This document shows positions 5,083 through 41,325 of a stretch of DNA of 53,188 nt, in pieces. The notes beneath the pieces are model-generated. The model had not been told where the DNA came from. It made no database searches and saw only the letters and a list, made by a program, of their open reading frames with translations. Where the stretch lies: positions 1-53,188 of the IMG/VR virus record IMGVR_UViG_3300032236_000387, one strand, 5' to 3'. The stretch's first letter is position 1; each line of letters opens with the position of its first letter. The position numbers were made by a program, and so were the translations under genes. The stretch is from a virus (Duplodnaviria > Caudoviricetes).

Positions 5083-8000
5083 ATGAGCGACAAGCACTTG
5101 ATGGGGATCAACGTGACGACCGACCGCAAGGCTGGCCGTCGTTACGCTGATCTGATCGTGGATGGCCACAAGGCGTATGAGTCGCGCAATGGAGATACGC
5201 TTAGACCGTATGTAGGCAAGCGTGTGGCCATTGTCCGGACCGGAGAGGGACCAGCAAAGGCCATTGGTGAAGTGACGGTCGGCGAGCCGATGGTGGTGAA
5301 CCAAAAGCAGTTTAGGGGCATGGAGCATCACCATCTGGTGCCAGAGGGATCGTCGTTTGACATTAAGACGCCGACCAAGCATTTGTACCCGATGCATAAC
5401 CCGGTGCGCTATGAGCAGGAATACGATGTTGGGCACGGGATCATTGCCCGGAAGGTGCATAAAGCAGAAGGCGGATCAGTGAGCGAACCAAAGAAGACCG
5501 TCAAGGCGTACAAACTGTTCCGGGTCCATCCCAAGCATCCCGGCAAACTGTTCCCGCTGTTTGTGGACTCGAACACTCCGGTGGCCATGAACGAGTGGGT
5601 GGCCGCGAAGGAAGGCGAGATGGCCAATGGCAAGGTCAAGTCGAAGCTGGGGCCGCTGGCGTACAGGCCGGGATGGCACGCTGGGGATTTGCCAATTGCC
5701 ACGCACATCGGGGAGAAGTCGCACAAGGATCTGAAGGCACCCGACCGCAGGCCAGCAAACCATGCATGGGCCGAGATCGAGATGCCCGATGATGTGGATT
5801 GGCAGTCGGAAGCGAACAAGCGCGGCGTGAACGCTAAAGGCAAGTTCATTCCGAGTCGGGCGCACATCACCGATCAACTACCTCATGAGGGGCACTATCG
5901 GTACAAGACCAACCCGAACATGACGGGGAACTGGCTCATTGGCGGGGCCATGAAGGTCAACAAGGTGCTGACCGATGACGAGGTCAAGAAGATCAACGAG
6001 CAAGCCGGTGCAAAGGATTTGCCAAGGGCGGCACCGTTTGATGCCAAGCATTTTGGGTTTAGGGATGGCGGCGTAGTGGGGCCAGAAGAGTGGGTGGCCG
6101 AGGAGCACGTCAATCATCATCACATCGTACATAAGGCGGAAGGCGGACTAATGGATACTTCACTGGCGCAGATGCGTATGGCGTTATCGCGCCAGAGCAA
6201 TCCCAAGATGATGGACAGTGTTGGGTTGAATGAAGCTCTGGACATGAAACCTAAGATGTTCATCAATCCCAACTCGAAGACGCAGGGCAATCCTGACGTG
6301 GGTGGGGTTCCAAGTAACGCCAGCCTGCCGATTGGCGGAATTGATGCCAATCCGATGGCTCAAGGCCAACAGATGGTTCCTAAAGCACCGCAGGCGCAAG
6401 CGCAGCCACAAAGTCCGCCGGGTAATCCTGCGCCGATGACGGGATCGCCACCGGATGGTCAACAGGGCGGACCCAAAGGAAATCTATTGGCTCTGACCTC
6501 ACAAGGGCAAGCATTGAATGCGTTGAAGCCAGCGCCAATGGCTGATGGTGGATTAGCCAAGTTCAAAGCCGCGATGATGTTCAAGCGCGATCAGGCAAAA
6601 CACCGGATGTACGCAAAAGGCGGGAAGGTTTACGAAGAGACTGAAAAGCCCAAGCGCATCAAGTTCAACGCAAAAGGTCATGGCGGTGTCAGCGGGATTG
6701 TGGTGCCGCGTCATATGTGGGAAGGAAGCCAGCACGCTGAAGGGATGGAGAAGGTCAACGCGGCAAGGGCTGCGGTTTATGGAGGTGAGAAGCGTTCACC
6801 GTTGGGGATCAATCAAGTGGGTCGTATTCACCGGGATACGCTCAATGATCATTTCAAGAAACCAATTGAGCAGCAGCAGGCCGATGAGCAGGCCGCGTTA
6901 GAACGCTTACGGAAAGCCAAGCATATTGGCCGCGGGGCGAACACGCTGGATGAAAGCGAGAAGCTAGACACGGTCAGGCATGAGCGCGATGCACAGGGCC
7001 GTACCCATGTGGGGTATGCGTCTAAGGGTGTGGCGGGGCATTCGTTATACACGTCAGGACACGGTGACGAGCAAGAGCACCACGTCATCAATACCTGCCC
7101 CGGCCAGACGGTCGGATGCGGCGGTGGTATTGATAAGAGCGGAGTTGTGGATACCAGTAAGGGAACGTGTTTTGCGCCCAATGCGGAGTCGCAGTATGTA
7201 AACGCGGCGGTACGTCGGGCAAGCCATGAGCAGGCCAAGCATGACCCGGCAATGACGCGGGATTGGATTTTGGCGCACACTGGGTCATTGAGGGGTGTGT
7301 CGAACACCGCGGACAAAAAGAATGTCCGGACGTTGTTCAGGCCAAACGTGGTGGACGAAACTGACGTGTCATCGCGTCATGCAATTCGGCATTTGAATGA
7401 GCAACGTAAAGCTGCAGGCAAACCACCGATTATTGCCAACTCGTATGGCAAGACCACGGAACTGCATGACCCGGAGAACGGGTATTACGTTACGCACTCG
7501 AACGTCGGGCCTAAGACCAAACACGGCAAATCAATTGAAGAGAACATTGGGCGAGACAAGCAGCGTGTTCGATCAACGATTCTGGCCGCGGACGCCAGCG
7601 GAAAAAACTTTACAAACGAACAGGGTAACAAGACGCCACCCAAGGGTTCGTACATGGTGACCGATGTGAAGCGTGGATCGCCGTTGTCAAAAGCGATGCA
7701 GGAACACATTACGCACGCCAAGTATTGGTCAACGCCAAAACCCGTAGAAAGCCTCAGTGACGAGGAAAAAGCTGAAGGTGAAGAGAACCATTACAACGGT
7801 CATGGGAAGCCTACAACGCCGGACAAGTCGCACTATGGGCATACGACGCTGAATGGGCAGCGGTACGACTACCAAAAGCAACACGTTTTGCACCCAAGGC
7901 TGGTGCAGGTTGGAAAGAATCCAGATGGTAGTGATCACATGATCCCTACCGATTCACGGTTTAAGGATGAGGATTTCCTTCCGAAAAATCGGTACATGAC

Positions 8001-8391
8001 CAAGAATGGCAAGAAAGCTGGTCATATCTTGATGACTACGCCAACAGAATCAACCAGTAATTTGGCCCATCACACGTCGTTTACGCACCATGTAAACGAT
8101 AATCATATAGAGTATGCCAAAAACCATAACGGGGAGTATGAGATTGATCCCCCAGCACAACAGGAAGCCAGCATGGGCAAAGAGTACGTTGCTCCACAAG
8201 AAGTGAAGATTGCAAAGAGAGTTGTGAAGAAAGCCATGGGTGGATCAATTGAATCCGATGAGGGATTAAATGACGACAATTTCCATGCATTCCCAGAGCG
8301 CAATTTTGCAGCGCAACACCACTTGGCGCATCGTGCGGGGATTCAGGACATCACTGATATGCCCCATGAGCACCTGCACAATAAAGGCTGA
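5083..8391 (+). CDS. Large multidomain (polyvalent-type) protein: ASCH-like domain, uncharacterised domain and GP88/radical-SAM-like domain, separated by xAxGG motifs
   Basis: ASCH motif YADLIVDGHKAYESR; Cys triad TCPGQTVGC...GTCFA with FRPNVVD and NSYGKT; six GG motifs; true start may be ATG 5083. Confidence 0.7.
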   Translation: MSDKHLMGINVTTDRKAGRRYADLIVDGHKAYESRNGDTLRPYVGKRVAIVRTGEGPAKAIGEVTVGEPMVVNQKQFRGMEHHHLVPEGSSFDIKTPTKHLYPMHNPVRYEQEYDVGHGIIARKVHKAEGGSVSEPKKTVKAYKLFRVHPKHPGKLFPLFVDSNTPVAMNEWVAAKEGEMANGKVKSKLGPLAYRPGWHAGDLPIATHIGEKSHKDLKAPDRRPANHAWAEIEMPDDVDWQSEANKRGVNAKGKFIPSRAHITDQLPHEGHYRYKTNPNMTGNWLIGGAMKVNKVLTDDEVKKINEQAGAKDLPRAAPFDAKHFGFRDGGVVGPEEWVAEEHVNHHHIVHKAEGGLMDTSLAQMRMALSRQSNPKMMDSVGLNEALDMKPKMFINPNSKTQGNPDVGGVPSNASLPIGGIDANPMAQGQQMVPKAPQAQAQPQSPPGNPAPMTGSPPDGQQGGPKGNLLALTSQGQALNALKPAPMADGGLAKFKAAMMFKRDQAKHRMYAKGGKVYEETEKPKRIKFNAKGHGGVSGIVVPRHMWEGSQHAEGMEKVNAARAAVYGGEKRSPLGINQVGRIHRDTLNDHFKKPIEQQQADEQAALERLRKAKHIGRGANTLDESEKLDTVRHERDAQGRTHVGYASKGVAGHSLYTSGHGDEQEHHVINTCPGQTVGCGGGIDKSGVVDTSKGTCFAPNAESQYVNAAVRRASHEQAKHDPAMTRDWILAHTGSLRGVSNTADKKNVRTLFRPNVVDETDVSSRHAIRHLNEQRKAAGKPPIIANSYGKTTELHDPENGYYVTHSNVGPKTKHGKSIEENIGRDKQRVRSTILAADASGKNFTNEQGNKTPPKGSYMVTDVKRGSPLSKAMQEHITHAKYWSTPKPVESLSDEEKAEGEENHYNGHGKPTTPDKSHYGHTTLNGQRYDYQKQHVLHPRLVQVGKNPDGSDHMIPTDSRFKDEDFLPKNRYMTKNGKKAGHILMTTPTESTSNLAHHTSFTHHVNDNHIEYAKNHNGEYEIDPPAQQEASMGKEYVAPQEVKIAKRVVKKAMGGSIESDEGLNDDNFHAFPERNFAAQHHLAHRAGIQDITDMPHEHLHNKG

Positions 8392-30304: not shown

Positions 30305-30949
30305 ATGACGACATTCGCACCCTCTTGGGTAATGACCTATGATTCGCTGACATCAACGGTCCTACAGTATCTTGAACGTACTGACACGGCGGTCGTTAAC
30401 GCTATTCCTACGTTCATCACGCTTGCTGAATTTGAGATCGCTCAAGAGATCAAGACGCTCGGGCAGCTACAGGTTGTAGGCTCTACCCTTACTGCAGGCA
30501 GTCCAACGCTCCAAAAGCCTGCTAGGTGGCGTAAAACGGTATCTATGAACCTGACAACCAGTTCAGGATCTAGGTCGCCGATTCTGCTTCGCAAATACGA
30601 GTATCTGGTCAACTATTGGCCAAAAAATTCTAGTACTGGGCAGCCTCTGTACTACGCGGACACTGATTGGGACCATTGGTATCTGGCTCCAACGCCTGAC
30701 CAAGCGTACACGTTCGAGGTGCTCTACTACGAACGGATCGCTCCGTTAAGCTCGACCAATCAAACCAACTGGTTGACCCAAAACGCTCCGACCGCGATGT
30801 TGTTCGGCACGCTCTTGCAGGCGATGCCTTTCTTAAAAAACGATCAGCGAACAATTTTTCAGCAGAAATACACTGAAGCCATTCAATCGCTTAAGACTGA
30901 GGACGTGGCTCGCGTCGGTGACCGTCAGTCAATAGCCGTGGACTCATAA
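30305..30949 (+). CDS. Tail adaptor (tubular protein A-like)
   Basis: MTYDSL...IPTFITLAE...LAPTPDQAY...NWLTQNAP pattern. Confidence 0.75.
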   Translation: MTTFAPSWVMTYDSLTSTVLQYLERTDTAVVNAIPTFITLAEFEIAQEIKTLGQLQVVGSTLTAGSPTLQKPARWRKTVSMNLTTSSGSRSPILLRKYEYLVNYWPKNSSTGQPLYYADTDWDHWYLAPTPDQAYTFEVLYYERIAPLSSTNQTNWLTQNAPTAMLFGTLLQAMPFLKNDQRTIFQQKYTEAIQSLKTEDVARVGDRQSIAVDS

Positions 30950-30950
30950 T

Positions 30951-32213
30951 ATGACTACCTCTTACGTCAATCCGTACACGGGACAGACGGTCAGCCCATC
31001 GCAGGTTGGCTACGAAAGTCTCACGATCAGCACTGACACAATCCTTCAGTGGCCAATAAATGGCACCACTGGATATGTCGTTGCCAACATTATCGATGTT
31101 GTAGCTACGGCCAGCGGGTTGAATCTTTACCTACCCGTGGCCAGCGCAGTATCGGTTGGTCAAGCGTTCATCATTCGGAACATCGGGACGGTATCTCAGT
31201 ATTCGTTCACGGTTGTCAATAATGCTGGCACCACGATCATCAATATTCCGGTTGCTCCGACAACCTCGACTGTCAACACTTATTACATTTACCTCACTGA
31301 CAATTCGACCACTTATGGAACGTGGTCAACAATTGCCATGGGGATTGGTACTTCGGCTGCAAACTCGGCAACTCTTGCCGGGTTGGGTCTGAAGGCAATT
31401 ACCAATACGTTGAATTCAAACCTTCCAGTAACGACCAATCCATCAACTGGATACACATTTACTGCGTTGGATAGGGCAGCGCTATATGTATGGTCGAGTG
31501 GCGCAGGAACCCTAAATTTACCAACCGTGGCCAGTGTTGGTGCCGGGTGGTTTGTAGCCATCAAAAATGATGGAACAGGAATTCTTACGGTTGCTCCGCA
31601 AGGTGCAAGTAAAATTGATGGAACGGCAAGTTCGGTTCAGATTCAAATTGCCAACTCAAGCGTGTTTGCAACGGATGGGACCGATTGGTACACCTATGCA
31701 TTGGCGCAGACAAACGTATTCAACTACACCCAGTTGTTGCTAAGTGTTACTGGCGCTGCATCGACAATTACATTGACTGCGGCACAGGCAAAAAACGTCA
31801 TCCAAAATTATGCTGGGACGCTTTCTTACAATACAACCATTTATTTGCCGCAAACCGTTCAGTTGTATTCGATTAAAAATTCAACAAGCGGTTCTTATAC
31901 GTTGAGTTTTGCTGTTTACGGAGTTAGCGGCGGAACAACAATTTCGGTTTCTCAGGGAACCAACGCAATTTTGATTTGTGATGGCACGAACGTATACAGC
32001 GGAACGTCGTCCACGCAAAGCTTTGCAACATCCTTGACAGTTGGAAATGGATCTGCAGCGGCACCATCTGTAAACTTCTCTGGTGATTCAACCACCGGGA
32101 TATTCTTGGCCGCATCTGGTCAACTTGGGTTTGCAGTGGGCGGTGTATCTGCAGGAGCGGTTACAGCAAGTGGACTGTTGCTTACGGTTGGCATCAATAG
32201 CGGTACGTTCTGA
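30951..32213 (+). CDS. Tail structural/fibre-base protein
   Basis: Beta-rich; GSAAAPSVNFSGDSTTG motif. Confidence 0.7.
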   Translation: MTTSYVNPYTGQTVSPSQVGYESLTISTDTILQWPINGTTGYVVANIIDVVATASGLNLYLPVASAVSVGQAFIIRNIGTVSQYSFTVVNNAGTTIINIPVAPTTSTVNTYYIYLTDNSTTYGTWSTIAMGIGTSAANSATLAGLGLKAITNTLNSNLPVTTNPSTGYTFTALDRAALYVWSSGAGTLNLPTVASVGAGWFVAIKNDGTGILTVAPQGASKIDGTASSVQIQIANSSVFATDGTDWYTYALAQTNVFNYTQLLLSVTGAASTITLTAAQAKNVIQNYAGTLSYNTTIYLPQTVQLYSIKNSTSGSYTLSFAVYGVSGGTTISVSQGTNAILICDGTNVYSGTSSTQSFATSLTVGNGSAAAPSVNFSGDSTTGIFLAASGQLGFAVGGVSAGAVTASGLLLTVGINSGTF

Positions 32214-34774
32214 TGACGATTAAAGTCGCAGTACTTCAGGTTGGCGCTGGAATCCAGCGAGATGGTACAGTATTTGCCGCTCCAACTTATGTAGATGGCC
32301 AGTGGGTTCGATTCCAGTACGGTCGCCCCAGAAAAATGGGTGGTTATTCTGGTGCATTTTTGAATGCACAGGGAATCAGCCGAGGAATGATTCTTAGTTC
32401 TCAAAACGGTCAAACGTGGGTTGTGTCCGGGTTTAACAACGGACTACAGCAATGGACAATCAATAACGATGCTGCAATTGGTACGGGTCCAACACAGATT
32501 TATGTGATTGGCTCGATTACAACGTCGTCAATTACGTCTGCTGGTGCCGGGTATGTTGCAGGTACTTATACTGGAGTGGCTCCTGTTACGACCAGTGGTA
32601 ACGGTACTGGAGCCACCTACACCGTGGTGGTTTCTGGCGGAAAAGTAACGTCAGCCACTTTAACGGCTAGTGGAAACGGATACGGATATGGCGATACGTT
32701 CAGCTTTGCAAACTCAGATATTGGTGGGAATTCGCTATCTTCAGTAGCGGTAATCGGAACGGCTGGGCAATTTTCCTGCACTGCTACAACCACCCTTGTG
32801 GCTGGTCAAACGGTTATTGTTACGGGTACTTTGACTGGCACGGCAACCGGCGTGTCGTCTGGAACGTACTACGTCATTACTGGCGGAACCACGTCGTTTA
32901 CGTTGTCGAATACGCTAGGTGGCACAGCAATTACCACGACGGCTGGAACCACCACGGGGCTGACATTTAACCCGGTGAATGCGTTTCAAGGGACTATAAA
33001 TTCGGTCACATATTACGGTGTGAACGTAGCCCCATCGAGCAATTATTTTCAATCAAGCTCCAGCACTCTTTGGCAGTTTGACTATGGATATGATCCGTCA
33101 GGGACTGGAAATAACAATCTGATCGCGCATCCGGGGCAGAATCTTCAATACATCGACAGCACGACCAATACCCGACCGCTGATTGGTCCGTTTACCGGAA
33201 CTGCTTTGACTCCGGTTGGTGTTTTTACGGCCACCGGGACGACGACCAATGGGTCACCTAACGTCACGTTCTCAAGCATCAATGTGGCCATGGGCGCGGG
33301 GGTTAGTGTCAGTGGGACGGGGATACCGTCAAGCACGAAAATTGTTTCGTCGAACTACGTCAGCAATAGCTTCAATCTGGCCGGGGTTGCTGTTACCGGG
33401 ACCGCAGGCCAATTCTCTTGTAGTGCCACTACGCTTACGTCCGGTCAGGCAATCACGGTCACCGGCACGCTGACAGGCAGCGCCACGGGCATCGCCGCGG
33501 GAACCTATTACATCATTGCCACAAACGGAACAACGACCTTCACGTTGTCGAATACATCTGGCGGGTTTGCAATTGTCACGACTGCTGGAACGACCGCTGG
33601 GTTGACGTTTACCGCGTTCGTAGCCAGCACATGGACCGTGGTTCTCAGCGCCAATGCGACTGCGTCTGGAACCGTCACATTGACCTTTGACAACAACATC
33701 AGCGTGTCTGGTGGTGTTGTGATGTTGTACCCATACTTGTTTGTCTATGGCAACAACGGGTTGATCCAGAACTGTTCTGCGGGAAACTTTAACAACTGGA
33801 CTTCGGCGGATTCAAACGCCAACAACGTGGCCTCTACGAAGATCGTGAAGGGGCTTCCACTGCGAGGTGGTACTACGTCACCGGCTGGGCTTTTTTGGAG
33901 CCTAGACGGCGTTATACGGGTCACCTATGCCCCGCAGGCTGTAGGCACGTCCACAATCTACTGGCGATATGATCTGGTCACACAGCAGTCATCTATCATG
34001 TCCAGTTCGTGTGTGATCGAGTACGACGGAATTTATTACTGGGCTGGGGTAGATCGATTCTTGATGTACAACGGCGTTGTTCAAGAAGTGCCCAATACCC
34101 AGAATCTAAACTGGTTTTTTGATGGACTCAATACGTCACAACGCCAGAAGGTGTGGGTCAGCAAAATTCCGAGGTGGGGCGAGATCTGGTGGTTCTATCC
34201 TCGGGGTAGCGCGACTGAATGCAACGACGCCATCATCTATAACATCAGAGAAAAATGTTGGTATGACGCCGGGTTGGCCGATGGTGCCAATCGATCTGCA
34301 GGCACGTTTTCAGAAGTGTTCAAAAAGCCGGTGTGGGCTGGCGACGTGGCCAACTCCACTGGCAACTACACTTTGTGGATTCACGAGCAGGGAACCGATC
34401 AGATTTATCTGAACAACGTAAATGCCATCAACTCGTACTTTGAAACGAACGTCATTGGTACGGGCACTGGGCTGGTGGGTACTGCAAGTGGCCTTGGGGA
34501 TAATTTGTGGACTCGTCTGGAGCGTGTTGAACCTGATTTTGTTCAGTCTGGCCAGATGAGTTTGACGGTCACGGGTAAAGGTTACGCGGATGATGTAGAT
34601 CGAGCCTCAACGCCCTATGTTTTTGATGCATCCACCCTTAAAATAGACATGAAGGAACAGCGCCGGGAGATGCGGTTGCGGTTCACCAGCAACACCCAAA
34701 ACGGGAATTACTTCATGGGCCGGGTGGTGATGAGTGTCGATACTGGCGATGTCCGCGGAACGGCAAACCCATGA
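32213..34774 (+). CDS. Tail nozzle/stabilisation protein (tubular protein B-like) with inserted beta domains
   Basis: GQWVRFQYGRPRKMGG N-terminus; FLMYNGVVQEVP...WGEIWWFYP...YNIREKCWY. Confidence 0.75.
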   Translation: MTIKVAVLQVGAGIQRDGTVFAAPTYVDGQWVRFQYGRPRKMGGYSGAFLNAQGISRGMILSSQNGQTWVVSGFNNGLQQWTINNDAAIGTGPTQIYVIGSITTSSITSAGAGYVAGTYTGVAPVTTSGNGTGATYTVVVSGGKVTSATLTASGNGYGYGDTFSFANSDIGGNSLSSVAVIGTAGQFSCTATTTLVAGQTVIVTGTLTGTATGVSSGTYYVITGGTTSFTLSNTLGGTAITTTAGTTTGLTFNPVNAFQGTINSVTYYGVNVAPSSNYFQSSSSTLWQFDYGYDPSGTGNNNLIAHPGQNLQYIDSTTNTRPLIGPFTGTALTPVGVFTATGTTTNGSPNVTFSSINVAMGAGVSVSGTGIPSSTKIVSSNYVSNSFNLAGVAVTGTAGQFSCSATTLTSGQAITVTGTLTGSATGIAAGTYYIIATNGTTTFTLSNTSGGFAIVTTAGTTAGLTFTAFVASTWTVVLSANATASGTVTLTFDNNISVSGGVVMLYPYLFVYGNNGLIQNCSAGNFNNWTSADSNANNVASTKIVKGLPLRGGTTSPAGLFWSLDGVIRVTYAPQAVGTSTIYWRYDLVTQQSSIMSSSCVIEYDGIYYWAGVDRFLMYNGVVQEVPNTQNLNWFFDGLNTSQRQKVWVSKIPRWGEIWWFYPRGSATECNDAIIYNIREKCWYDAGLADGANRSAGTFSEVFKKPVWAGDVANSTGNYTLWIHEQGTDQIYLNNVNAINSYFETNVIGTGTGLVGTASGLGDNLWTRLERVEPDFVQSGQMSLTVTGKGYADDVDRASTPYVFDASTLKIDMKEQRREMRLRFTSNTQNGNYFMGRVVMSVDTGDVRGTANP

Positions 34775-35017: not shown

Positions 35018-35389
35018 ATGCAACCATCAGAAATCATCAACGCAGACTCGCAACAGAGAGGCTTGGACCCTAAAGCGGTTCTGATTTCTGTACGGCAGAT
35101 TTTAAAAAACGGTGGGCACTTGCTGCACGCCGGTAACACTGCGTTGTTGCTTCAAAGGATTGGTCCGCAGGTCTTTGCCACTCATCTATTTACGAGTGAT
35201 CAGCCTATAGCTTTATCACGGGCGATGATTCAATTCTTTCACCAAATTTCAGGTCAAGGAATTCATCGTCTTTATGGGAAGGCGGACAATGTTCAAATTA
35301 TTCAACTTTTGCAGAATTTGACCAAAGGGGTGAGTGCAACCATGCATCCATCTGACCGTCCCGAATACAACTGGATGATTCAATTATGA
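35018..35389 (+). CDS. Hypothetical protein, possibly degenerate GNAT-like fold
   Basis: Occupies the slot before ejection genes that often holds an acetyltransferase-like protein. Confidence 0.5.
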   Translation: MQPSEIINADSQQRGLDPKAVLISVRQILKNGGHLLHAGNTALLLQRIGPQVFATHLFTSDQPIALSRAMIQFFHQISGQGIHRLYGKADNVQIIQLLQNLTKGVSATMHPSDRPEYNWMIQL

Positions 35390-37392
35390 CTAGTTATTCG
35401 GGAAGCGCTGGTAGGCAAAACAAAGGCGCAAAGGTTGTCAGTTCGTACAGCGGTGCTGGTCAGATCGTTAATGGTCAGGGCATTCGTGATTATCACGGCG
35501 GCGGAGCAATTGTTCACATTGGTCTGGCTCTGTTGGATGTCGCCACTGGTGGAGCCACGGCGTTTCTTTGTGCTCTTGATGAAGCATCAGATGCTGCGTG
35601 TCTGATTGATGCGGCGGCAAACTCGTTTGAAGCCATTGATAATGTAACTGGTCTTCCTTCTGAAGTAGCAAGCACATTTACTCCCGGCGACTTTATTGCC
35701 AATCCATGTTGTGCTTTTAGTTTTGGATGCGATGCAAGGGCTGGGCTGTCTTGTGCTAGTCAGGTAGGTTCTTCAACGAACGCAGCTGATGGCGCGAGCA
35801 CAATTGGATGTGATGCCAGAGCAGGGATGACTTGCACTGTTAATGGCGGTTTATCTACTTGCACCGTTACTGGCGGTTCTGCAGCTTGCACTGTAAACGG
35901 TGGATTGCCGTCGTCTTGTACAGTGGGTGGTGGGGCTGCGGCTTGCACCTTGTCGGGGGGATCGGTTAATTGCACCCTGTCTGGCGGTGCCGGGAATGAC
36001 ACTTTCAACTGTGACACAGTTGATTCTGGATCTAAATGTGACACGCTAAAAGGCGGATCCGAATCTTGCACGTTGCAGGGCGGCTCTGGAAACGACACTC
36101 TTTGCGCGTGCTGCACTAACTGTTGCTGTGATTGTTGCAACTGTGATTGCTGTAAATGCGATTGCTGTAACTGCGATTGTTGTAACTGTGACTGCTGTAA
36201 ATGCTGCTGTGATTGTTGCAATTGCGACTGCTGCAACTGCGACTGCTGTAACTGTGACTGCTGTAATTGCTGCTGTGATTGTTGTAATTGCGACTGTTGC
36301 AATTGCTGTTGCGATTGCTGTAACTGCGATTGCTGCAATTGTTGTTGTGACTGCTGTAATTGCTGTGACTGTTGCAACTGTGATTGCTGTTGTTGTGATT
36401 GCTGTTGCGACTGCTGCTGTTGCGACTGTTGCTGCTGTGATTGCTGCTGCTCTGATTGCAAATGCAAATCGCACAAGTGCAAGTCCAAAAAATGCAAGAC
36501 CAACTGCAAACCTGCAAAAGCCGGTTCAACGACGACTAATATCAATCAACCCGCACAAACTTTTTTATGCGGAAAGGCAGATGTTTTGACCAATCGCGGC
36601 GGAAATTACAGTGCTGATCAACTTCAAGGATTGAAGCAGATCGGAACTGAGGCTCTTCCAACTGCTCCCAATATGGGAGGTCTTGGTTTTGCGGAAGCAG
36701 GAACGGTAAAAGCAGATGTGACGCAACAACCATCGAAGGTTGAAAGTCTGAACGATTTGACAAAGCTTTCTGATCCGTTTAACGACAAAGCATTTTGCAC
36801 TGCTCAGTTCAATGCTAAATATGTAGAGGCTCCACCAGAGATGTTGCACAACACTGGCGTTGGAAATAAAGCGCCCGGATTGTCGTCATTGAAGCAAATC
36901 CACCAGTCAATTGTTGGTCACGCTGAAGGTGGTCTGCCGCATAAGTATGCAGCGGCAGCACCCAAGGGGCATAAACCAGAGTTTGTGACCGGGTTGACCG
37001 GGTACTACGCTTGTGGTGGCGGCACGGGACAGTCGGATGATATTCCGGCAATGCTGCATGACGGAGATTACGTCATGGATGCTGAGACAGTGTCTGCGCT
37101 TGGTGACGGTTCCAGCAAAGCAGGTATGCACGTTTTGGAAGGTTTCCGTAAACAGATACCTCATAAAGCTGGCGGAGGGTCAAACCCGGTTCCGGCCAAA
37201 ATCGCTGATGGAGAGTATGTGTTCCCGGCTGCGTTTGTCACTTCCCTCGGCGGAGGTAACAATAAGAAGGGTGCAGAAATTCTTGACGGTTTACGAGAAA
37301 AGTTGCGAGCACATAAGCGAGGCGCTCCATTGGATTCAATCCCACCAAAAGCAAAATCCCCGATTGACTACATCAAAAAGGGTGGTAAGTAA
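35386..37392 (+). CDS. Putative internal virion protein with RTX-like repeats, a Cys-rich run and a duplicated DIPAML-x-DG(D/E)YV domain
   Basis: Single 668-aa frame; C-terminal GTGQSDDIPAMLHDGDYV and VPAKIADGEYV. Confidence 0.8.
   Translation: MTSYSGSAGRQNKGAKVVSSYSGAGQIVNGQGIRDYHGGGAIVHIGLALLDVATGGATAFLCALDEASDAACLIDAAANSFEAIDNVTGLPSEVASTFTPGDFIANPCCAFSFGCDARAGLSCASQVGSSTNAADGASTIGCDARAGMTCTVNGGLSTCTVTGGSAACTVNGGLPSSCTVGGGAAACTLSGGSVNCTLSGGAGNDTFNCDTVDSGSKCDTLKGGSESCTLQGGSGNDTLCACCTNCCCDCCNCDCCKCDCCNCDCCNCDCCKCCCDCCNCDCCNCDCCNCDCCNCCCDCCNCDCCNCCCDCCNCDCCNCCCDCCNCCDCCNCDCCCCDCCCDCCCCDCCCCDCCCSDCKCKSHKCKSKKCKTNCKPAKAGSTTTNINQPAQTFLCGKADVLTNRGGNYSADQLQGLKQIGTEALPTAPNMGGLGFAEAGTVKADVTQQPSKVESLNDLTKLSDPFNDKAFCTAQFNAKYVEAPPEMLHNTGVGNKAPGLSSLKQIHQSIVGHAEGGLPHKYAAAAPKGHKPEFVTGLTGYYACGGGTGQSDDIPAMLHDGDYVMDAETVSALGDGSSKAGMHVLEGFRKQIPHKAGGGSNPVPAKIADGEYVFPAAFVTSLGGGNNKKGAEILDGLREKLRAHKRGAPLDSIPPKAKSPIDYIKKGGK
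36103..36507 (+). repeat. Cys-rich low-complexity repeat, mostly (CCNCD)n
   Basis: About 135 codons, roughly two-thirds Cys in the core, mixed TGT/TGC, GAT/GAC, AAT/AAC codons. Confidence 0.95.
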
Positions 37393-37394
37393 AA

Positions 37395-38525
37395 ATGCCT
37401 AATAGTCTTACTCAGTCGTCGCAAACTAAATCGACGTGCGCCCCGCAGTACTACAACGATTACCTGCAAGGGATCGTTCAAAAGGGTCAACAGGCAGAAT
37501 GTAAAGCTCAGTATGTTGGAGCCACGCCTCTCCAACAGAAAGCTTTTACGGACATCTGTAAGACCGCTGGAGCGCAAGCGCCAAATTATGCGACTGCTCA
37601 AGGATATGTTGGGTGCGCTGCAGGAAAAGACATTTCTGGTGCCGCCACTCCATTCCTGACTGCCGCAACCTCGGCAAGTCCATTGTGCGCGGCCAAGCCA
37701 CTAATTTGCCAATCTTCCAATCTAAATTTAGGTGAAGTCGCTGGGCAGTACATGAACCCATTTATCAGATCTGCCGTACAGCAGATGTCGGATATTGGGC
37801 AGCGGAACATTATGCAGAACATTGACCCGGCAGCAATGGCCGGGTTGGTTGGTTCTGGGCAGTTTGGCTCGCAACGCGGTGCCCAAGTTATGGGGCAAGT
37901 TAACGCAAACGCAGAGCAGGATCTGAATAGTCAGATTGCCAATATGCTTTCGTCCGGGTACGGGCAAGCATTACAGGCCGCTGGAACCAAACAAGGTGCT
38001 TTGACCAACCTTGCAAACACCACGGCAACGGCGCAGCAGGCACAAAATGCTGCGGAAAATACTGCGGCTACCACGGCTGCAAATGCTGCTGCAGCGTGCG
38101 CTACGGCGAAGGAACGAGCGGGTCTAGCAGCAGGCACGTTGGCCGGTCAAGCGGCGGCAACCAACATCAATTGCATTAATGCGCTGGCTACGCTTGGCGC
38201 TCAGTGTCAGACCATTAAACAAAACGCCCAGTGTTACGACTTCAACAAGCTTTCAAAAGAAGCTGCGTTGATGCAAGGCGTCAGTGTTCCGACATCAACC
38301 AAGACGACGATGTGTATGTCTCCGTTGTCTACGGCGGCATCTCTGGCATCGATTGCAAAAGGTGTGGCCTGTAGCAAGGGGTTGTCTTGTGCGTTATGTA
38401 AAGCGTGGTGCAAAGTTTCTAGCATTTTTGGATGTCATGCCAGAGGCGGTCTGATTACGGCAGGCGGTGCCGTGGGTTGCCGATCTACTCGTAATCTTGG
38501 CGGTCTACCGCGTGGGGGAAGATAA
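37395..38525 (+). CDS. Putative DNA ejection/internal virion protein (Ala/Gln-rich)
   Basis: YMNPF...GQFGSQRG...SGYGQAL pattern; unusually many Cys. Confidence 0.7.
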   Translation: MPNSLTQSSQTKSTCAPQYYNDYLQGIVQKGQQAECKAQYVGATPLQQKAFTDICKTAGAQAPNYATAQGYVGCAAGKDISGAATPFLTAATSASPLCAAKPLICQSSNLNLGEVAGQYMNPFIRSAVQQMSDIGQRNIMQNIDPAAMAGLVGSGQFGSQRGAQVMGQVNANAEQDLNSQIANMLSSGYGQALQAAGTKQGALTNLANTTATAQQAQNAAENTAATTAANAAAACATAKERAGLAAGTLAGQAAATNINCINALATLGAQCQTIKQNAQCYDFNKLSKEAALMQGVSVPTSTKTTMCMSPLSTAASLASIAKGVACSKGLSCALCKAWCKVSSIFGCHARGGLITAGGAVGCRSTRNLGGLPRGGR

Positions 38526-40369
38526 TGGCCGAGAAACAGGATTATTCAGCCGCGCTAGGTGGACTTGATAACTCTAAGCTTCCACTCTATGGGCGCGGTG
38601 ATAAGGATCTCGAAGAGCTTCAGAAAGCTCGGGAAGACGCCCTATCCGCGCTCCAGAAGCGATATGAGCAACCCAACTGGTTCAAGGTAGCGGCAGGGTT
38701 TGCCAAGCCGCAGCTAGGCGGTTTTGCGGCGTCTCTGGGTAGTGCTGCCGAGGCGCTCGGGGAGAATGTCGAGCAACAGCGTGCCCAAGAACTTCCGATT
38801 GCTCAGATGAAGCTGGCGATCAAGCAGGGCAATATGCTGCTGAAGTCTCAAGCAGATGTGGCTGATGACATCAAGAAGTGGCGAGAGTCGCACCCCGGTC
38901 AAACGCCATCGGCTCAACTGGTTGGTGAGTGGGCTGCACGCGCACCTGAGTCGAACACGGTTAAGTCTCTGCAGGAAGAACTGAATTTTCAGCAAAAACA
39001 AGCACAGCAGACATTGGAGCGCATCAACCACAAGAGGGCTGCGAATATTCCGTTGGATGAGCAGGATCGAGCATTCCTTGCTCAGAAACCTGAAGGCCAG
39101 CCACGGGCAGAAAGGCCACAAGAGGCTCCTGCAATTCCGTCCGGACCTGCCGCGACTTCTGCGATAACCCCGCCCAAGCTTGCGATGGAACCAGTCAATG
39201 TCACTGAACCATCAAAACCTGAAGTAAAACAGGAAGAAAAAGCATCAGCCGTGCTTCCTAGTGGGGCACGGGTTAACAAGGATGTTCTTGGTTTGCATCA
39301 GCAGGGTATTCCGATCATCAGTAACATCCGGACCCAAAAAGAACAAGATGCGCTCAAGCACCATCAAGATGAAAATGGCAACTGGTACACCAAAGAAGGC
39401 CGACCAGTATCGGATGTTACAAAGCATTTGACTGGTGATGCGATTGATCTTGATCCAAAGAAAAATCTCAACGCGGAGCAACGAAAGCTACTCGAAGAAA
39501 ATGGATGGAAGCAGCCCAACCCCAAGGGAGATGCGAACCACTGGGAGCGTGTGAAGCCAGCCAAACTTGCAGAGGCCAAGCCTGCACAAGTAAAACTCGA
39601 TGAAAATAAACCGCCCCAGTTTTATCCGCCGAGTTTGAAGAAGCCAGACATTACCGGACTTGGTCCGGACGATGTGGCCATGAGAACTGCTGGGTACAAG
39701 AAAAGCGCAGAAGTGATGGAGACTCCTTACGCGGAAAAAATGGCCAGCTTGGCTCCTCTTGTTTCTGGGAATGACTATACCCGTGTCAAAAATTCATACG
39801 ACACTGCGATTGGAATGATTGAGAACAACCAAGATATGGCAAAAAAAGTTTTTGCCATGTTGCGTCAAGATCCAATCAAGGCTGCTCTTAACGAAGGTAT
39901 CGGTGTTCATGCCGGGTCGATCACGGCCAACATTAACTTACCTGTCAAGGCGTTTTTAGATGCCGGTCTAAGCGAAAGAGAAAAGCACTACGCAGATAAA
40001 TTGTTTAGTTCTTTGGTGAACATTGCAACGGCCAACTTACGAGCGCAAGGCGTATCAATGGGCAAGGTGCCGCAGCAGGAATACATGAAGGCAATGTCTG
40101 GGTTTGTGAACCCGGATCTGACTGCTCCTGCTGCTTTGAATATGCTTCATCACAGCCGTGCTGATTTTGATCAGAGCAAAGAGTATTACGACATTGTCAT
40201 GAAGGAAATGAGGGACAAAGTCGATATGTCACACACTTCGACTCCATACTCAGACATTCATCATAATTCGTCCGACTTGGCCAAGATTCACAAGAAGTAC
40301 TCTGCGATTCACAAACGATATGATGATGACTATCAGAATGCGTTAAGACCGCAAGGAAACAAACCATGA
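38525..40369 (+). CDS. Internal virion protein with a peptidase M15-like (Zn peptidoglycan hydrolase) domain
   Basis: ISNIRTQKEQDAL...TKHLTGDAIDL...DANHWE (H-x6-D...H). Confidence 0.7.
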   Translation: MAEKQDYSAALGGLDNSKLPLYGRGDKDLEELQKAREDALSALQKRYEQPNWFKVAAGFAKPQLGGFAASLGSAAEALGENVEQQRAQELPIAQMKLAIKQGNMLLKSQADVADDIKKWRESHPGQTPSAQLVGEWAARAPESNTVKSLQEELNFQQKQAQQTLERINHKRAANIPLDEQDRAFLAQKPEGQPRAERPQEAPAIPSGPAATSAITPPKLAMEPVNVTEPSKPEVKQEEKASAVLPSGARVNKDVLGLHQQGIPIISNIRTQKEQDALKHHQDENGNWYTKEGRPVSDVTKHLTGDAIDLDPKKNLNAEQRKLLEENGWKQPNPKGDANHWERVKPAKLAEAKPAQVKLDENKPPQFYPPSLKKPDITGLGPDDVAMRTAGYKKSAEVMETPYAEKMASLAPLVSGNDYTRVKNSYDTAIGMIENNQDMAKKVFAMLRQDPIKAALNEGIGVHAGSITANINLPVKAFLDAGLSEREKHYADKLFSSLVNIATANLRAQGVSMGKVPQQEYMKAMSGFVNPDLTAPAALNMLHHSRADFDQSKEYYDIVMKEMRDKVDMSHTSTPYSDIHHNSSDLAKIHKKYSAIHKRYDDDYQNALRPQGNKP

Positions 40370-41325
40370 CCGATCAAGAAAAGGAAGATCAAGAGGCCGC
40401 TGAAGCTGCTAACGAGTATTTTCGGGAACAACATCCTCATCACGCTGAAAACAACAAGAATGTTTATTCCGGAATGTCTTTTGAAGACAAAAAGGAAGAG
40501 CCAAAAAAAGAACCTGCTCCTGACTGGATGGTGCCTGCGGGTGCCGCAACTGGCGCTGCTGCAGTTCACACCGATGCACTTCGTCGTTTTCTAAGTGGAG
40601 TTGCAAAGCCAGCCGAATCAGTCTACGCGCCGGTAAATGTTCAACCGCGGTACAGTGCTCCTCGCGCAGAACCAGCAATGGGTGGGCTTAGTTCTGTCGA
40701 GTTCGAGAGCAATGTTGACAAGATCATGCATAGCTTGAGGGGCGAAGGGCAACCCAGCGGTGAACAGAAGCGTAAAGGTGCCAACTGGAAGACCAACCGG
40801 GAAGCTCTGGCAACTGAGCACAATCTGAAACAACCCGGCGCTGGGCAGGCAATCGTGAATGCCGGTGAAATGGCTCCAACACGAGGTGGCCTTGCAGTTC
40901 CAGAACACGTCGCATATGAGATCGAGGAAGAGGAATTGCGGCGTCGGGCAGTAGAGCAGGCAAGGCGCGAGGAAGCTGCAGCGTTAGCTAAAGCACAAGC
41001 AGAGGCCAGATCTGCCGAGACGGCACAAATGAGAGCGGCTGCCGAGGCGAAAGCTGCTCAACAAGGGAAAGCACTTGGTGTTCTCAAAGGTGCGGCCAAG
41101 GTTGGTTTAGGCGCTCTTGGCGGAGCGTTTGCAGGCAAAGACTTTTACGATGCCTACCAAGAGTACAAGGCCAAAGGGTACAGCGACGAAATGATTTCCA
41201 AGCTTCTATCTGGAGCAGGTGGAACCTTAATGATGGTTCCAACTCCATTCACTGAAGTTGGAGGGGCTGCTTTAATGGGGGCTGGGATGGCGTATCCCCA
41301 CGTTGCGAAACGCCTACGGCAGTAA
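40366..41325 (+). CDS. Putative internal virion protein with a C-terminal Gly/Ala hydrophobic region
   Basis: Last gene of the structural operon. Confidence 0.65.
   Translation: MTDQEKEDQEAAEAANEYFREQHPHHAENNKNVYSGMSFEDKKEEPKKEPAPDWMVPAGAATGAAAVHTDALRRFLSGVAKPAESVYAPVNVQPRYSAPRAEPAMGGLSSVEFESNVDKIMHSLRGEGQPSGEQKRKGANWKTNREALATEHNLKQPGAGQAIVNAGEMAPTRGGLAVPEHVAYEIEEEELRRRAVEQARREEAAALAKAQAEARSAETAQMRAAAEAKAAQQGKALGVLKGAAKVGLGALGGAFAGKDFYDAYQEYKAKGYSDEMISKLLSGAGGTLMMVPTPFTEVGGAALMGAGMAYPHVAKRLRQ

What the first reader, a model, noticed from the sequence alone, without database searches (positions are those of the whole stretch)
36103..36507. Metallothionein-like (CCNCD)n run of about 135 residues inside a putative internal virion protein
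Seen: roughly two-thirds Cys, in frame within a 668-aa ORF. Synonymous codons are well mixed, which points to protein-level selection rather than recent slippage or assembly error. Such Cys density is very unusual in phage structural modules. Inference: a metal or ROS sink, a cross-linked scaffold, or a substrate for post-translational modification (a radical-SAM-like domain and two His-triad oxygenases are encoded in the same genome).
Basis: partly seen in the sequence, partly recalled or inferred. Interest (0 to 1): 0.78.

Follow-up and report, generated by a model that had tools for sequence, protein, structure and literature searches.

The report
Poly-cysteine string in phage ejection protein
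An uncultured freshwater phage encodes a probable DNA-injection protein with a stretch of about 120 residues that is two-thirds cysteine; many related phages keep similar stretches under selection, but what the cysteines do is still unknown.

Summary
Residues 240-358 of the 668-aa ORF (window 36103-36459) contain 79 Cys in 119 residues. Over the stated 36103-36507 it is 83 in 135. Codons are mixed (TGC 44, TGT 35), and the longest exact DNA repeat is 23 nt. A second assembly of the probable source data reproduces the region, and a close relative from another study has a different Cys run at the same place.

The gene follows the adaptor and nozzle genes of a complete 53-kb podovirus-type genome, so it is probably the first of four ejection (internal virion) proteins.

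The family has a highly conserved C-terminal 200 aa that carries a tape-measure-like motif. The middle is hypervariable and low in complexity. Cys-dense runs occur there in 38 of 186 unique members, and they usually end just before a Lys/Pro-rich patch.

Between close relatives the runs differ mostly at third codon positions and by in-frame indels, so the cysteines are translated and selected. Cys content also tracks that of the next gene's protein (rho 0.89) and of no other neighbour, but this is not shown to be independent of ancestry.

No radical-SAM gene is present, and no modifying enzyme is enriched nearby. The mechanism is inferred: thiol-based locking by disulfides or cations, or metal binding.

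The parts
35386..37392 (+). Gene for the 668-aa family protein. It is probably the first ejection (internal virion) protein. Its start overlaps the stop of the upstream gene, and the next gene starts 3 nt after its stop.
   Evidence: synteny; 128 database relatives and 103 IMG/VR relatives.
35491..35577 (+). N-terminal module, residues 36-64: a Gly run followed by a hydrophobic/Asp stretch. It is shared with both Cys-run and non-Cys relatives such as L015, L026 and L024.
   Evidence: Alignment A2; coordinates counted by hand.
35806..36102 (+). Repeats of 9-10 residues with one Cys per unit (xCTVxGG type), residues 141-239. They include two canonical RTX-type nonapeptides at residues 200-207 (35983-36006) and 232-239 (36079-36102).
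   Evidence: Pfam HemolysinCabind scores 23.8-24.8 bits against a cut-off of 23, E 2e-5. Coordinates counted by hand.
36103..36459 (+). Poly-Cys core, residues 240-358: 79 Cys, 21 Asp and 14 Asn in 119 residues. Cys blocks are 1-4 long, and 37 of the 42 stretches between them are single residues.
36460..36507 (+). Lys/Cys tail, residues 359-374, where the run passes into a basic patch.
   Evidence: In 38 run-bearing relatives the 30 residues after the run are 23% Lys, 12% Pro and under 1% Asp+Glu.
36562..36588 (+). Conserved short motif (residues 393-401) that follows the basic patch in both Cys-run and non-Cys relatives.
   Evidence: Alignment A2.
36793..37389 (+). Conserved C-terminal domain, residues 470-668. 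It holds two copies of a motif of about 40 residues (residues 536-580 = 36991-37125; residues 600-636 = 37183-37293). The first copy resembles a motif in tape-measure proteins.
   Evidence: A1: 65 sequences, 59-77% identical to the window. PDB 8zdo_S tape measure protein E 0.0028. phrog_6090 E 2.1e-7. AF2 pLDDT 62.
35018..35389 (+). Upstream 123-aa gene of unknown family, translationally coupled. It goes with the N-terminal module type, not strictly with the Cys run.
   Evidence: 17 of 23 Cys-run loci against 6 of 49 others. It is present in the non-Cys loci L003, L015 and L019 and absent from the Cys-run loci L004, L010, L027, L050 and L064.
37395..38525 (+). Downstream 376-aa protein with 17 Cys (4.5%). 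Its Cys content tracks that of the 668-aa protein across relatives.
38525..41325 (+). Two further putative ejection proteins (614 and 319 aa), both without any Cys.
   Evidence: Synteny with MW202545.1 and Caulobacter phage GB2A, whose blocks end in genes annotated as SLT transglycosylase and lytic tail protein.
30305..34774 (+). Adaptor (30305-30949), a 420-aa fibre-like protein (30951-32213) and the nozzle (32213-34774). These fix the phage as podovirus-type and place the Cys gene just after the tail genes.
   Evidence: PF24175 SU10_adaptor E 3.5e-27. PDB 8zkk_O nozzle gp16 E 1.8e-6.

Best explanation
The run is a real, translated and selected 'cysteine string'. It is an intrinsically unstructured Cys/Asp/Asn low-complexity module in the hypervariable middle of the first ejection (internal virion) protein of a podovirus-type freshwater phage.

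I think it most likely works through thiol chemistry that is switched by location. The string would stay unfolded in the reducing, low-calcium cytoplasm and while threading the tail channel. Outside the cytoplasm (in the released virion and/or the host periplasm) it would be locked by disulfide formation and cation binding, together with the Cys-bearing protein of the next gene. That would hold the ejected proteins together or stop them sliding back.

Shown: the anatomy, the translated frame, selection on Cys, recurrence in the family, and the raw co-variation with the neighbouring protein.

Inferred: that the protein is ejected, and every chemical step.
For: Real and selected:
- 79 Cys in 119 residues with mixed codons.
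- The region is reproduced in a second assembly, and a close relative from another study has a different Cys run at the same place.
- DNA-only alignments of runs between close relatives put mismatches at codon position 3: 26/26/50, 16/11/39, 13/7/26 and 15/12/31. Four of 6 pairs reach p < 0.005.
- In 4 of the 6 pairs every indel is a multiple of 3. The other two pairs each hold two indels that are not.

Recurrent:
- 38 of 186 unique family proteins carry a run.
- Runs occur with at least two N-terminal module types.
- The tree needs 8 gains or losses, at least 4 of them forced by well-supported branches.

Fixed anatomy:
- In the 34 run-bearing proteins whose run lies inside the protein (the other 4 have it at the N-terminal end), the run ends 297-398 residues before the C-terminus.
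- It is followed by a Lys/Pro-rich patch.

Ejection-protein context:
- Adaptor and nozzle genes lie just upstream.
- The gene order matches that of Caulobacter phage GB2A and MW202545.1, whose blocks end in lytic genes.
- The C-terminal motif is shared with tape-measure proteins, which also leave through the tail.

Partner:
- Cys% of the family protein correlates with Cys% of the next protein (Spearman 0.89, n=52).
- It does not correlate positively with adaptor, fibre, nozzle, 81-aa or 614-aa homologues (rho -0.47 to 0.26).
- 17 of 17 run-bearing loci have a partner with at least 4% Cys, against 7 of 34 others.
- Conserved Cys positions of the partner are all replaced in the Cys-free clade.

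Extracytoplasmic flavour:
- Two RTX-type calcium nonapeptides lie directly before the run.
- RTX domains fold on calcium outside the cell and drive secretion by a Brownian ratchet (abstracts of PMC6891781 and PMC8486122, seen in the listing).
Against: - No chemistry was observed.
- The co-variation with the partner is not shown to be independent of ancestry. Only 4 independent pairs exist; the partner goes the same way in about 2, the other way in 0, and the median p is 0.5.
- Run length varies widely between near-identical phages (141 to 254 residues in L009, L006, L020 and L024). That fits a bulk property, but it also fits weak constraint.
- Close relatives do without any Cys run (L015, L019, L003), so the run is dispensable.
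- Acidic neighbours would slow thiol oxidation.
- Heavy inter-chain disulfides in the virion could block passage through the tail.
- AF2 gives pLDDT of about 30 over the run, which neither supports nor refutes a fold that depends on cofactors.
- The RTX motifs are two isolated copies, not an array.
- Presence of the protein in virions is not shown.
Confidence: 0.35

Rival explanations
1. Metallothionein-like metal-thiolate module. The string binds many soft metal ions (Zn, Cu, Cd, Fe) in the virion. It would act as a compact, reversible fold, as a metal or oxidant sink that protects packed DNA, or as metal cargo.
For: - Cys density and the CC, CxC and CCxC spacing.
- No aromatic residue in the core, and one His in the tail.
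- The accompanying residues across relatives are Thr, Ser, Asp, Ala, Asn and Glu.
- L084 has CCED/CCEE units, which recall Glu-Cys metal-binding peptides. Abstracts of PMC4292183 and PMC11191002 (seen in the listing) state that (Glu-Cys)n peptides and phytochelatins bind Cu, Zn and Cd.
- A variable run length fits a capacity-type function.
Against: - No Pfam metallothionein family matches at E <= 10.
- The run is not a small stand-alone protein.
- Metal-thiolate clusters are anionic, and known metallothioneins pair Cys with Lys rather than Asp/Glu (recalled, not tested). Here the core has 21 Asp and 2 Lys.
- No metal transporter or redox gene was seen in the genome: no thioredoxin and no glutaredoxin.
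- This reading does not by itself explain the co-varying isolated Cys positions of the partner protein.
Confidence: 0.25
2. Near-neutral spacer. Only length, disorder and lack of DNA binding matter. Cys richness would be a by-product of expansion of TGY-rich repeats in a hypervariable linker that in other lineages is Pro/Asp, Ala/Gly or Thr/Val rich.
For: - Relatives have other low-complexity sequence at the same place.
- Gains and losses are repeated.
- Length changes are large between near-identical phages, with indels of 15, 45 and 48 nt.
- The run is dispensable in close relatives.
Against: - Cys is retained while the TGT/TGC choice is scrambled. In L020/L024, 29 of 89 aligned Cys-Cys columns differ in codon, against 12 Cys-to-other columns.
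- The third-position bias also appears in DNA-only alignments.
- Different repeat units (CCNCD, CCTD, CCCDT, CCED, CAPCC) all keep Cys.
- In a close relative of the window phage the unit has changed but Cys has not.
- The partner protein's Cys content follows.
- Cys is otherwise rare in this genome, at 0.75%.
Confidence: 0.15
3. Membrane-active or surface-active segment. The Cys string, which is fairly hydrophobic, together with the Lys/Pro patch would anchor the ejected protein at a host membrane. This would resemble Cys-string plus polybasic membrane anchors.
For: - A polybasic patch nearly always follows the run.
- Some relatives carry the Cys string at the very N-terminus, mixed with Trp, Phe and Ile (P0030, P0010, P0011).
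- Non-Cys relatives have Gly/Ala-rich stretches of the kind seen in membrane-inserting proteins.
Against: - The window's run has 21 Asp and 14 Asn interspersed, which is not membrane-like.
- No bacterial S-acylation system for such strings is known to me (recalled).
Confidence: 0.08
4. Substrate for enzymatic post-translational modification, such as radical-SAM thioether cross-links or oxygenase chemistry.
For: - Partner residues (Asp, Asn, Thr, Ser) are of the kind used as acceptors in thioether peptides (recalled).
- Earlier findings of this scan describe Ser/Cys tails next to radical-SAM arrays in other phages.
- The genome has two 2OG oxygenases.
Against: - No radical-SAM match at E <= 1.
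- The oxygenase family is in 21 of 29 related records: 7 of 8 with a run and 14 of 21 without, or with the protein cut at the locus edge.
- No enzyme family is enriched within 10 kb of the 23 run-bearing loci against 49 others. The four most run-enriched clusters are the 123-aa gene, an antisense ORF without a Pfam family, a GH108 endolysin and DUF7936.
Confidence: 0.05
5. Artefact: misassembly, or the wrong reading frame.
For: Repetitive DNA can be misassembled. All six frames are open over the run. No raw reads could be laid.
Against: - The conserved N- and C-terminal parts lie in the same frame as the run.
- A second assembly is identical.
- The longest exact repeat is 23 nt.
- Dozens of independent contigs carry comparable runs.
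- Third-position bias and in-frame indels are seen between relatives.
Confidence: 0.02

Closest known systems
Ejection / internal virion proteins of podoviruses (T7 gp14-gp16, P22 gp7/gp20/gp16; review PMC8954989)
   Same: - The gene block lies directly after the adaptor and nozzle genes.
- There are several consecutive proteins, much of them predicted disordered.
- Relatives end the block with a lytic domain.
   Different: - No sequence match to any solved or Pfam ejection protein.
- In the review, a term search found 0 occurrences of cysteine, disulfide or metal.
- A run of 66% Cys was not found described for such proteins in my searches.
Tape-measure proteins of long-tailed phages (PDB 8zdo_S gp16; phrog_6090 and eight further tape-measure PHROGs)
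   Same: A shared motif of about 35 residues (G-x-G-T-G-x-S-D ... D-G-E/D-Y/F-V), present twice in the C-terminal domain. Both protein kinds are thought to leave through the tail.
   Different: - The similarity is only local and weak (E 0.0028 in PDB).
- The phage has podovirus-type tail genes, and no tail tube or tape-measure chaperone genes were seen.
- The 'tape measure' label on the Caulobacter phage GB2A homologue is the depositor's annotation.
Metallothioneins and (Glu-Cys)n phytochelatin-type peptides
   Same: Very high Cys content, CC/CxC spacing, no aromatics, and acidic or polar partners. Metal binding is a plausible chemistry.
   Different: - The run has 66% Cys, against roughly 30% in metallothioneins (recalled).
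- It is embedded in a 668-aa virion protein.
- No family match.
- Its length is hypervariable.
- No metal data exist.
Ultra-high-sulfur keratin-associated proteins and eukaryotic cysteine-string protein
   Same: Short repeats built on CC pairs. P0005 has CAPCC/CSPCC units. The proposed function would be bulk cross-linking or anchoring rather than a defined fold.
   Different: These are eukaryotic and unrelated, so this is an analogy only (recalled). No palmitoylation or hair-type matrix context exists in bacteria.
RTX calcium-binding repeats of type I secreted proteins
   Same: Two canonical nonapeptides lie directly before the run. The idea that folding outside the cytoplasm gives direction to passage through a narrow duct comes from this family (abstract of PMC8486122 in the listing).
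   Different: There are only two separated copies, no beta-roll array and no C-terminal secretion signal. The Cys run itself is not an RTX repeat.

Membership tests
Podovirus ejection / internal virion proteins | Encoded in the structural operon directly after the tail adaptor and nozzle genes | tested here: met
   SU10_adaptor E 3.5e-27. Nozzle match to 8zkk_O, E 1.8e-6. The Cys gene starts 612 nt after the nozzle stop, with two small genes between. Caulobacter phage GB2A and MW202545.1 have the same order.
Podovirus ejection / internal virion proteins | Present inside the particle and released on infection | not testable with these tools
   No cultured phage with a Cys run is known, and I saw no proteome.
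Podovirus ejection / internal virion proteins | Sequence or fold similarity to a characterised ejection protein | tested here: not met
   - Pfam and PHROGs give none.
- The PDB profile search finds only a tape-measure motif.
- Foldseek of the C-terminal model finds nothing at E <= 0.001.
- The Atlas lead to crAss cargo protein scores 0.84, below the level to be trusted.
Podovirus ejection / internal virion proteins | A cell-wall-degrading domain somewhere in the block | tested here: inconclusive
   Relatives are annotated with an SLT transglycosylase or a lytic tail protein. In the window there is only a weak hit of the 614-aa protein to a D,D-dipeptidase (E 0.21) and no Pfam match.
Metallothionein | Match to a metallothionein family model | tested here: not met
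   No Pfam family at E <= 10 for the run, nor for two Cys-rich relatives.
Metallothionein | Cys-rich with CC/CxC/CxxC motifs and no aromatic residues | tested here: met
   79 of 119 residues are Cys. No Phe, Tyr, Trp or His in the core.
Metallothionein | Small stand-alone protein that binds metal in thiolate clusters | tested here: not met
   It is a segment of a 668-aa protein. Metal binding itself is not testable here.
RTX repeat proteins | Tandem array of GGxGxDxUx nonapeptides | tested here: not met
   Two copies at residues 200-207 and 232-239, 24 residues apart. The Pfam score is just over the cut-off.
Tape-measure proteins | Long protein of a long-tailed phage encoded between tail chaperones and distal tail genes | tested here: not met
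   The genome has adaptor and nozzle genes, and no tail tube or chaperone families were found. Only the short motif is shared.
Radical-SAM modified Cys-rich peptides (sacti-/ranthipeptide type) | A radical-SAM maturase encoded with the substrate | tested here: not met
   PF04055 gives no match at E <= 1 in the complete genome. Nothing of this kind is enriched near run-bearing relatives.

The most novel reading that the evidence does not exclude
A widespread group of uncultured freshwater podoviruses has evolved 'cysteine-string' ejection proteins. These are disordered strings of up to about 250 residues, half to two-thirds Cys, paired with a Cys-bearing partner protein. The strings would use the jump from a reducing to an oxidising, cation-rich compartment to rivet or ratchet the DNA-delivery apparatus, possibly with the help of the host's own periplasmic disulfide-forming enzymes. 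Sister lineages run the same apparatus with no cysteine at all. That would be a new, redox-driven principle in phage genome delivery.
Probability: 0.2. Interest if true: 0.85.

Novelty: new variant of a known kind. Interest (0 to 1): 0.64.

Why it matters
Stretches with two-thirds cysteine over more than 100 residues are, as far as I recall, denser than any characterised natural protein class. Here such a stretch sits in a protein that probably has to thread a channel a few nanometres wide and then work in the host envelope.

The family offers a natural experiment. Close relatives carry 0, about 20 or about 150 cysteines in the same protein, and a neighbouring protein changes in step.

If the thiols act as a redox or metal switch, this would add a new element to the poorly understood mechanics of podovirus DNA delivery. 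It could also matter for particle stability in oxic and anoxic waters. If they bind metals, phage particles would be an unnoticed metal-binding pool.

Even the modest reading is useful. It defines a large unannotated family with a conserved C-terminal domain that shares a motif with tape-measure proteins.

Tried and rejected
- **AF2, full-length protein** (alignment of 16): mean pLDDT 35.7, about 30 over the run, no secondary structure there. Uninformative.
- **AF2, C-terminal domain**: pLDDT 62.4. Foldseek against PDB finds nothing at E <= 0.001.
- **Pfam on the run alone**: nothing at E <= 10.
- **ESM Atlas on the C-terminal part**: only unnamed viral clusters. The nearest named cluster scores 0.84, below a trustworthy level.
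- **Independent-pairs test of the Cys co-variation**: underpowered, with 4 pairs.
- **Gene-cluster enrichment around run-bearing loci**: no enzyme found. It is limited to 10 kb on each side and to a crude ORF caller.
- **Host inference**: 6 loci lie in MAG bins, 5 labelled Betaproteobacteria or Burkholderiales and 1 Bacteroidetes. Both run-bearing (L084) and Cys-free (L086, L087) forms are in Betaproteobacteria/Burkholderiales-labelled bins. Binning of phage contigs is weak evidence, so I draw no host conclusion.
- **Sequencing runs X3 and X4** (small shares): after laying, only short pieces at 85-99% identity. X5 and X6 hold next to none. No habitat or abundance claim is made from them.
- **Raw reads**: none were served, so true read mapping was not done.
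- **Literature**: no paper on poly-Cys phage virion or ejection proteins in four searches. Supplements were not consulted.
- **Frameshift origin**: I considered that the run arose by frameshift of an Ala/Val/Thr-rich stretch, because the +2 frame of the run reads Ala/Val/Ile/Thr. That reading follows arithmetically from TGY codons, so I did not pursue it.
Full report
**What is there**

The window is a complete 53,188-bp virus record with direct terminal repeats. The ORF 35386..37392 (+) encodes 668 aa.

- Residues 240-358 (36103-36459) contain 79 Cys, 21 Asp, 14 Asn, 2 Lys and three other residues.
- Elsewhere in the genome Cys is rare: 92 of 12,237 codons in the other long + strand ORFs.
- The run is not a clean (CCNCD)n. 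It mixes CCN, CD, CCCD and CCCCD blocks and has 9 exact CCNCD units.
- Codons are TGC 44 and TGT 35, in an order that does not differ from random (z 1.6).
- The 9 CCNCD units use 7 DNA versions, and the longest exact repeat is 23 nt. Tandem Repeats Finder reports only imperfect arrays, 60-93% matches.
- The other ORFs over the run on both strands are what any TGY-rich sequence yields.

**Assembly**

No raw reads were served. In the run marked as the possible source, one 15.8-kb Logan contig spans 34800-38000 with no difference, so a second assembler gives the same sequence.

In a run from another study, contigs 95-99% alike cover both flanks. They enter the run from either side with loose ends that, in the gene's frame, read C-T-D-C-C-C-C-T-D and C-C-C-C-C-T-D-C-C-C (frame worked out by eye). 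A close relative therefore has a Cys run at the same place with a different repeat unit.

**Context**

- The genome has small and large terminase, portal and a major capsid protein. The capsid protein is 95% identical to MW202545.1 and 79% identical to Caulobacter phages RW, RLK, KcrB and GB2A.
- It also has an SU10-type adaptor (E 3.5e-27), a fibre-like protein and an 853-aa protein that matches a solved podophage nozzle (E 1.8e-6).
- These are followed by genes of 81, 123, 668, 376, 614 and 319 aa.
- GB2A and MW202545.1 share the order of tail and downstream genes and end the block with genes annotated as lytic.
- From passages of PMC11053796, the four Caulobacter phages form the proposed genus Riverwalkvirus. 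I found no virion proteome for them.
- By position the 668-aa protein is thus the first of four probable ejection proteins. This is inference, not observation.
- There are no tRNA genes, no radical-SAM match, and no thioredoxin or glutaredoxin.

**The family**

- A database search gave 128 relatives, of which 120 were listed.
- An IMG/VR scan gave 103 relatives, of which 80 loci were kept.
- They share only the C-terminal 200 residues or so. In alignment A1 (65 sequences) these are 59-77% identical to the window.
- This domain holds two copies of a motif of about 40 residues. The first copy resembles a motif in tape-measure proteins: PDB 8zdo_S E 0.0028, phrog_6090 E 2.1e-7, and eight further tape-measure PHROGs at E 0.0013 to 0.4.
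- Its AF2 model is of middling confidence (pLDDT 62.4) and has no Foldseek match.

**Recurrence of the run**

- With the criterion of at least 12 Cys in some 40-residue window, 16 of the 120 listed proteins and 26 of the 80 loci qualify.
- With the criterion of at least 40% Cys in a 20-residue window, 38 of 186 unique sequences qualify, pooled from 201.
- Extremes are L024 (148 Cys in 665 aa), L033 (141 in 860) and L020 (130 in 602).
- Units differ between lineages: CCTD, CCCDT/CCCDM, CCTxC, CAPCC, CCVxD, and CCED/CCEE in L084.
- Pooled run composition is Cys 48%, Thr 12%, Ser 7%, Asp 7% and Ala 5%. Basic and large hydrophobic residues are nearly absent.
- In the 34 cases where the run lies inside the protein (the other 4 have it at the N-terminal end), it ends 297-398 residues before the C-terminus.
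- The next 30 residues, pooled over all 38 run-bearing proteins, are 23% Lys, 12% Pro and under 1% acidic.
- Close relatives without a run have Pro/Asp, Ala/Gly/Thr or Thr/Val stretches at the same place. I saw no Cys in the GB2A homologue (read by eye).

**Evolution of the run**

On a tree of the C-terminal domain (65 rows: 21 with a run, 44 without) the trait is clustered but needs 8 changes. At least 4 of them are forced by well-supported branches. Nineteen of the 21 run-bearing rows lie in one supported clade of 33.

Within near-identical C-terminal domains (L009, L006, L020, L024) the run spans 141 to 254 residues.

In protein-guided codon alignments of close pairs, single-base differences inside runs fall mostly at position 3 (L020/L024: 8, 2, 44; L009/L020: 2, 2, 37). 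Many Cys-Cys columns differ in codon: 29 of 89 in L020/L024, against 12 Cys-to-other columns.

That design favours position 3 by construction, so I repeated it with DNA-only alignments.

| Pair | Mismatches at codon positions 1, 2, 3 | p |
|---|---|---|
| L020/L024 | 26, 26, 50 | < 0.005 |
| L009/L020 | 16, 11, 39 | < 0.005 |
| L031/L033 | 13, 7, 26 | < 0.005 |
| L011/L022 | 15, 12, 31 | < 0.005 |
| L006/L009 | 6, 6, 10 | not significant |
| L036/L009 | 50, 55, 71 | not significant |

In four of the six pairs every indel is a multiple of three. L009/L020 and L006/L009 each have two indels that are not, with 17 out-of-phase columns between them. The Cys frame is therefore translated, and Cys is kept by selection.

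**A co-varying neighbour**

- The next gene's 376-aa protein has 17 Cys (4.5%). The following two proteins have none.
- Across loci, the Cys fraction of the family protein and that of this neighbour correlate: Spearman 0.90 over 67 loci with a complete neighbour, and 0.89 over 52 unique loci.
- The controls give -0.47 (adaptor), -0.24 (fibre-like), 0.08 (nozzle), -0.46 (81-aa) and 0.26 (614-aa).
- Where the family protein has no Cys, the neighbour has none either. Where it has at least 8% Cys, the neighbour averages 6.5%.
- Conserved Cys positions of the neighbour are all replaced in the Cys-free clade. In L022 and its kin the neighbour carries its own Cys run near the C-terminus.
- Caveat: only 4 phylogenetically independent pairs exist. 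The neighbour goes the same way in about 2 and the other way in none, and no significance can be reached.

**Enzymes**

- The oxygenase family PF13759 is in 21 of 29 related records, and in 6 of the 7 that are at least 90% complete. By my classification that is 7 of 8 records with a run and 14 of the other 21. In four of those 21 the protein is cut at the locus edge.
- Clustering all ORFs of 72 unique loci (23 with a run, 49 without) found one strongly enriched family, the upstream 123-aa gene (17/23 against 6/49). It goes with the N-terminal module type and is also present in non-Cys relatives.
- The three next most run-enriched clusters are an antisense ORF without a Pfam family, a GH108 endolysin and DUF7936.
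- I see no support for a dedicated modifying enzyme.

**Mechanism**

The facts call for a property that:
- depends on Cys as such;
- tolerates any repeat unit and a wide range of lengths;
- is anchored just before a basic patch;
- is dispensable;
- is possibly shared with the neighbouring protein.

Directly before the run the window protein has repeats of 9-10 residues with one Cys each and two canonical RTX calcium nonapeptides.

I favour, at about 0.35, a location-switched thiol module. It would be unfolded while reduced and locked by disulfides and cations once outside the cytoplasm, tying the two Cys-bearing proteins together or preventing back-sliding. This is by analogy with the calcium ratchet of RTX proteins (abstract of PMC8486122).

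The rivals:

| Rival | Confidence | Comment |
|---|---|---|
| Metallothionein-like metal module | 0.25 | Favoured by the acidic Cys-Glu/Asp units and the variable length. Weakened by the lack of Lys and of any family match. |
| Neutral spacer | 0.15 | Contradicted by the selection data. |
| Membrane anchor | 0.08 | Not testable here. |
| Modification substrate | 0.05 | No enzyme support. |
| Artefact | 0.02 | Close to refuted. |

**Novelty**

Four literature searches found nothing on poly-Cys phage virion or ejection proteins. A review of ejection proteins has no occurrence of cysteine, disulfide or metal (term search).

The protein kind is known. The cysteine string, its recurrence and the paired Cys regime appear to be new.

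Noticed in passing
L022:9284-10546, also L011, L013 and L026 (downstream genes): In some relatives the protein of the next gene carries its own poly-Cys run near its C-terminus (CCxSDCC and CCSCC units). Cys strings therefore occur in two adjacent proteins of the block.
   Followed up: partly
L063, L066, L068, L074, L079, L081 and others: In one clade the family protein (610-1246 aa) has no cysteine, or at most 4 (L071 2, L072 1, L082 4), and the downstream protein (361-404 aa) has none. Tail proteins of the same loci keep ordinary Cys levels.
   Followed up: partly
P0084, P0085, P0093, P0118, L051 and five others: 10 of 185 unique family proteins have two to four TVTVTG / TVVVTG motifs, each followed by Lys/Arg and alternating with small Cys clusters. 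They recall the TonB boxes of outer-membrane receptors (recalled, untested). If real, they would suggest use of the host TonB system.
   Followed up: no
P0030, P0010, P0011 (protein N-termini): Short family members (384-410 aa) start directly with a Cys string of 20-24 residues mixed with Trp, Phe and Ile, instead of having the string in mid-protein.
   Followed up: no
window 36991-37125 and 37183-37293: The conserved C-terminal domain is an internal duplication of a motif of about 40 residues. The first copy also occurs twice in a solved tape-measure protein (8zdo_S) and in several tape-measure PHROGs. It has no Pfam family.
   Followed up: partly
window 38525-40369: The Cys-free 614-aa protein has a weak match (E 0.21) of residues 257-314 to a D,D-dipeptidase/carboxypeptidase (4mur_A). 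This may be the cell-wall-cutting part of the ejection block. There is no Pfam support.
   Followed up: partly
window 32213-34774: The nozzle protein contains two similar Thr/Gly-rich segments of about 70 residues (seen by eye in the translation). This looks like an internal duplication inserted in the nozzle fold.
   Followed up: no
window 5083-8391: A 1102-aa ORF between large terminase and portal has only weak ASCH and GP88 matches and a strong match to an unannotated PHROG (phrog_30118, E 2.8e-66). Its function is unknown.
   Followed up: no
window 35018-35389: The 123-aa gene overlapping the start of the Cys gene has no family. It travels with one N-terminal module type of the family protein (17 of 23 run-bearing loci against 6 of 49 others). 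It may be a dedicated chaperone or partner.
   Followed up: partly
L010, L027, L045, L049, L053 and others: In many relatives about 2 kb of extra genes lies between the 81-aa gene and the family gene. In MW202545.1 one of them is annotated as a 3-oxoacyl-ACP synthase (depositor's label).
   Followed up: no
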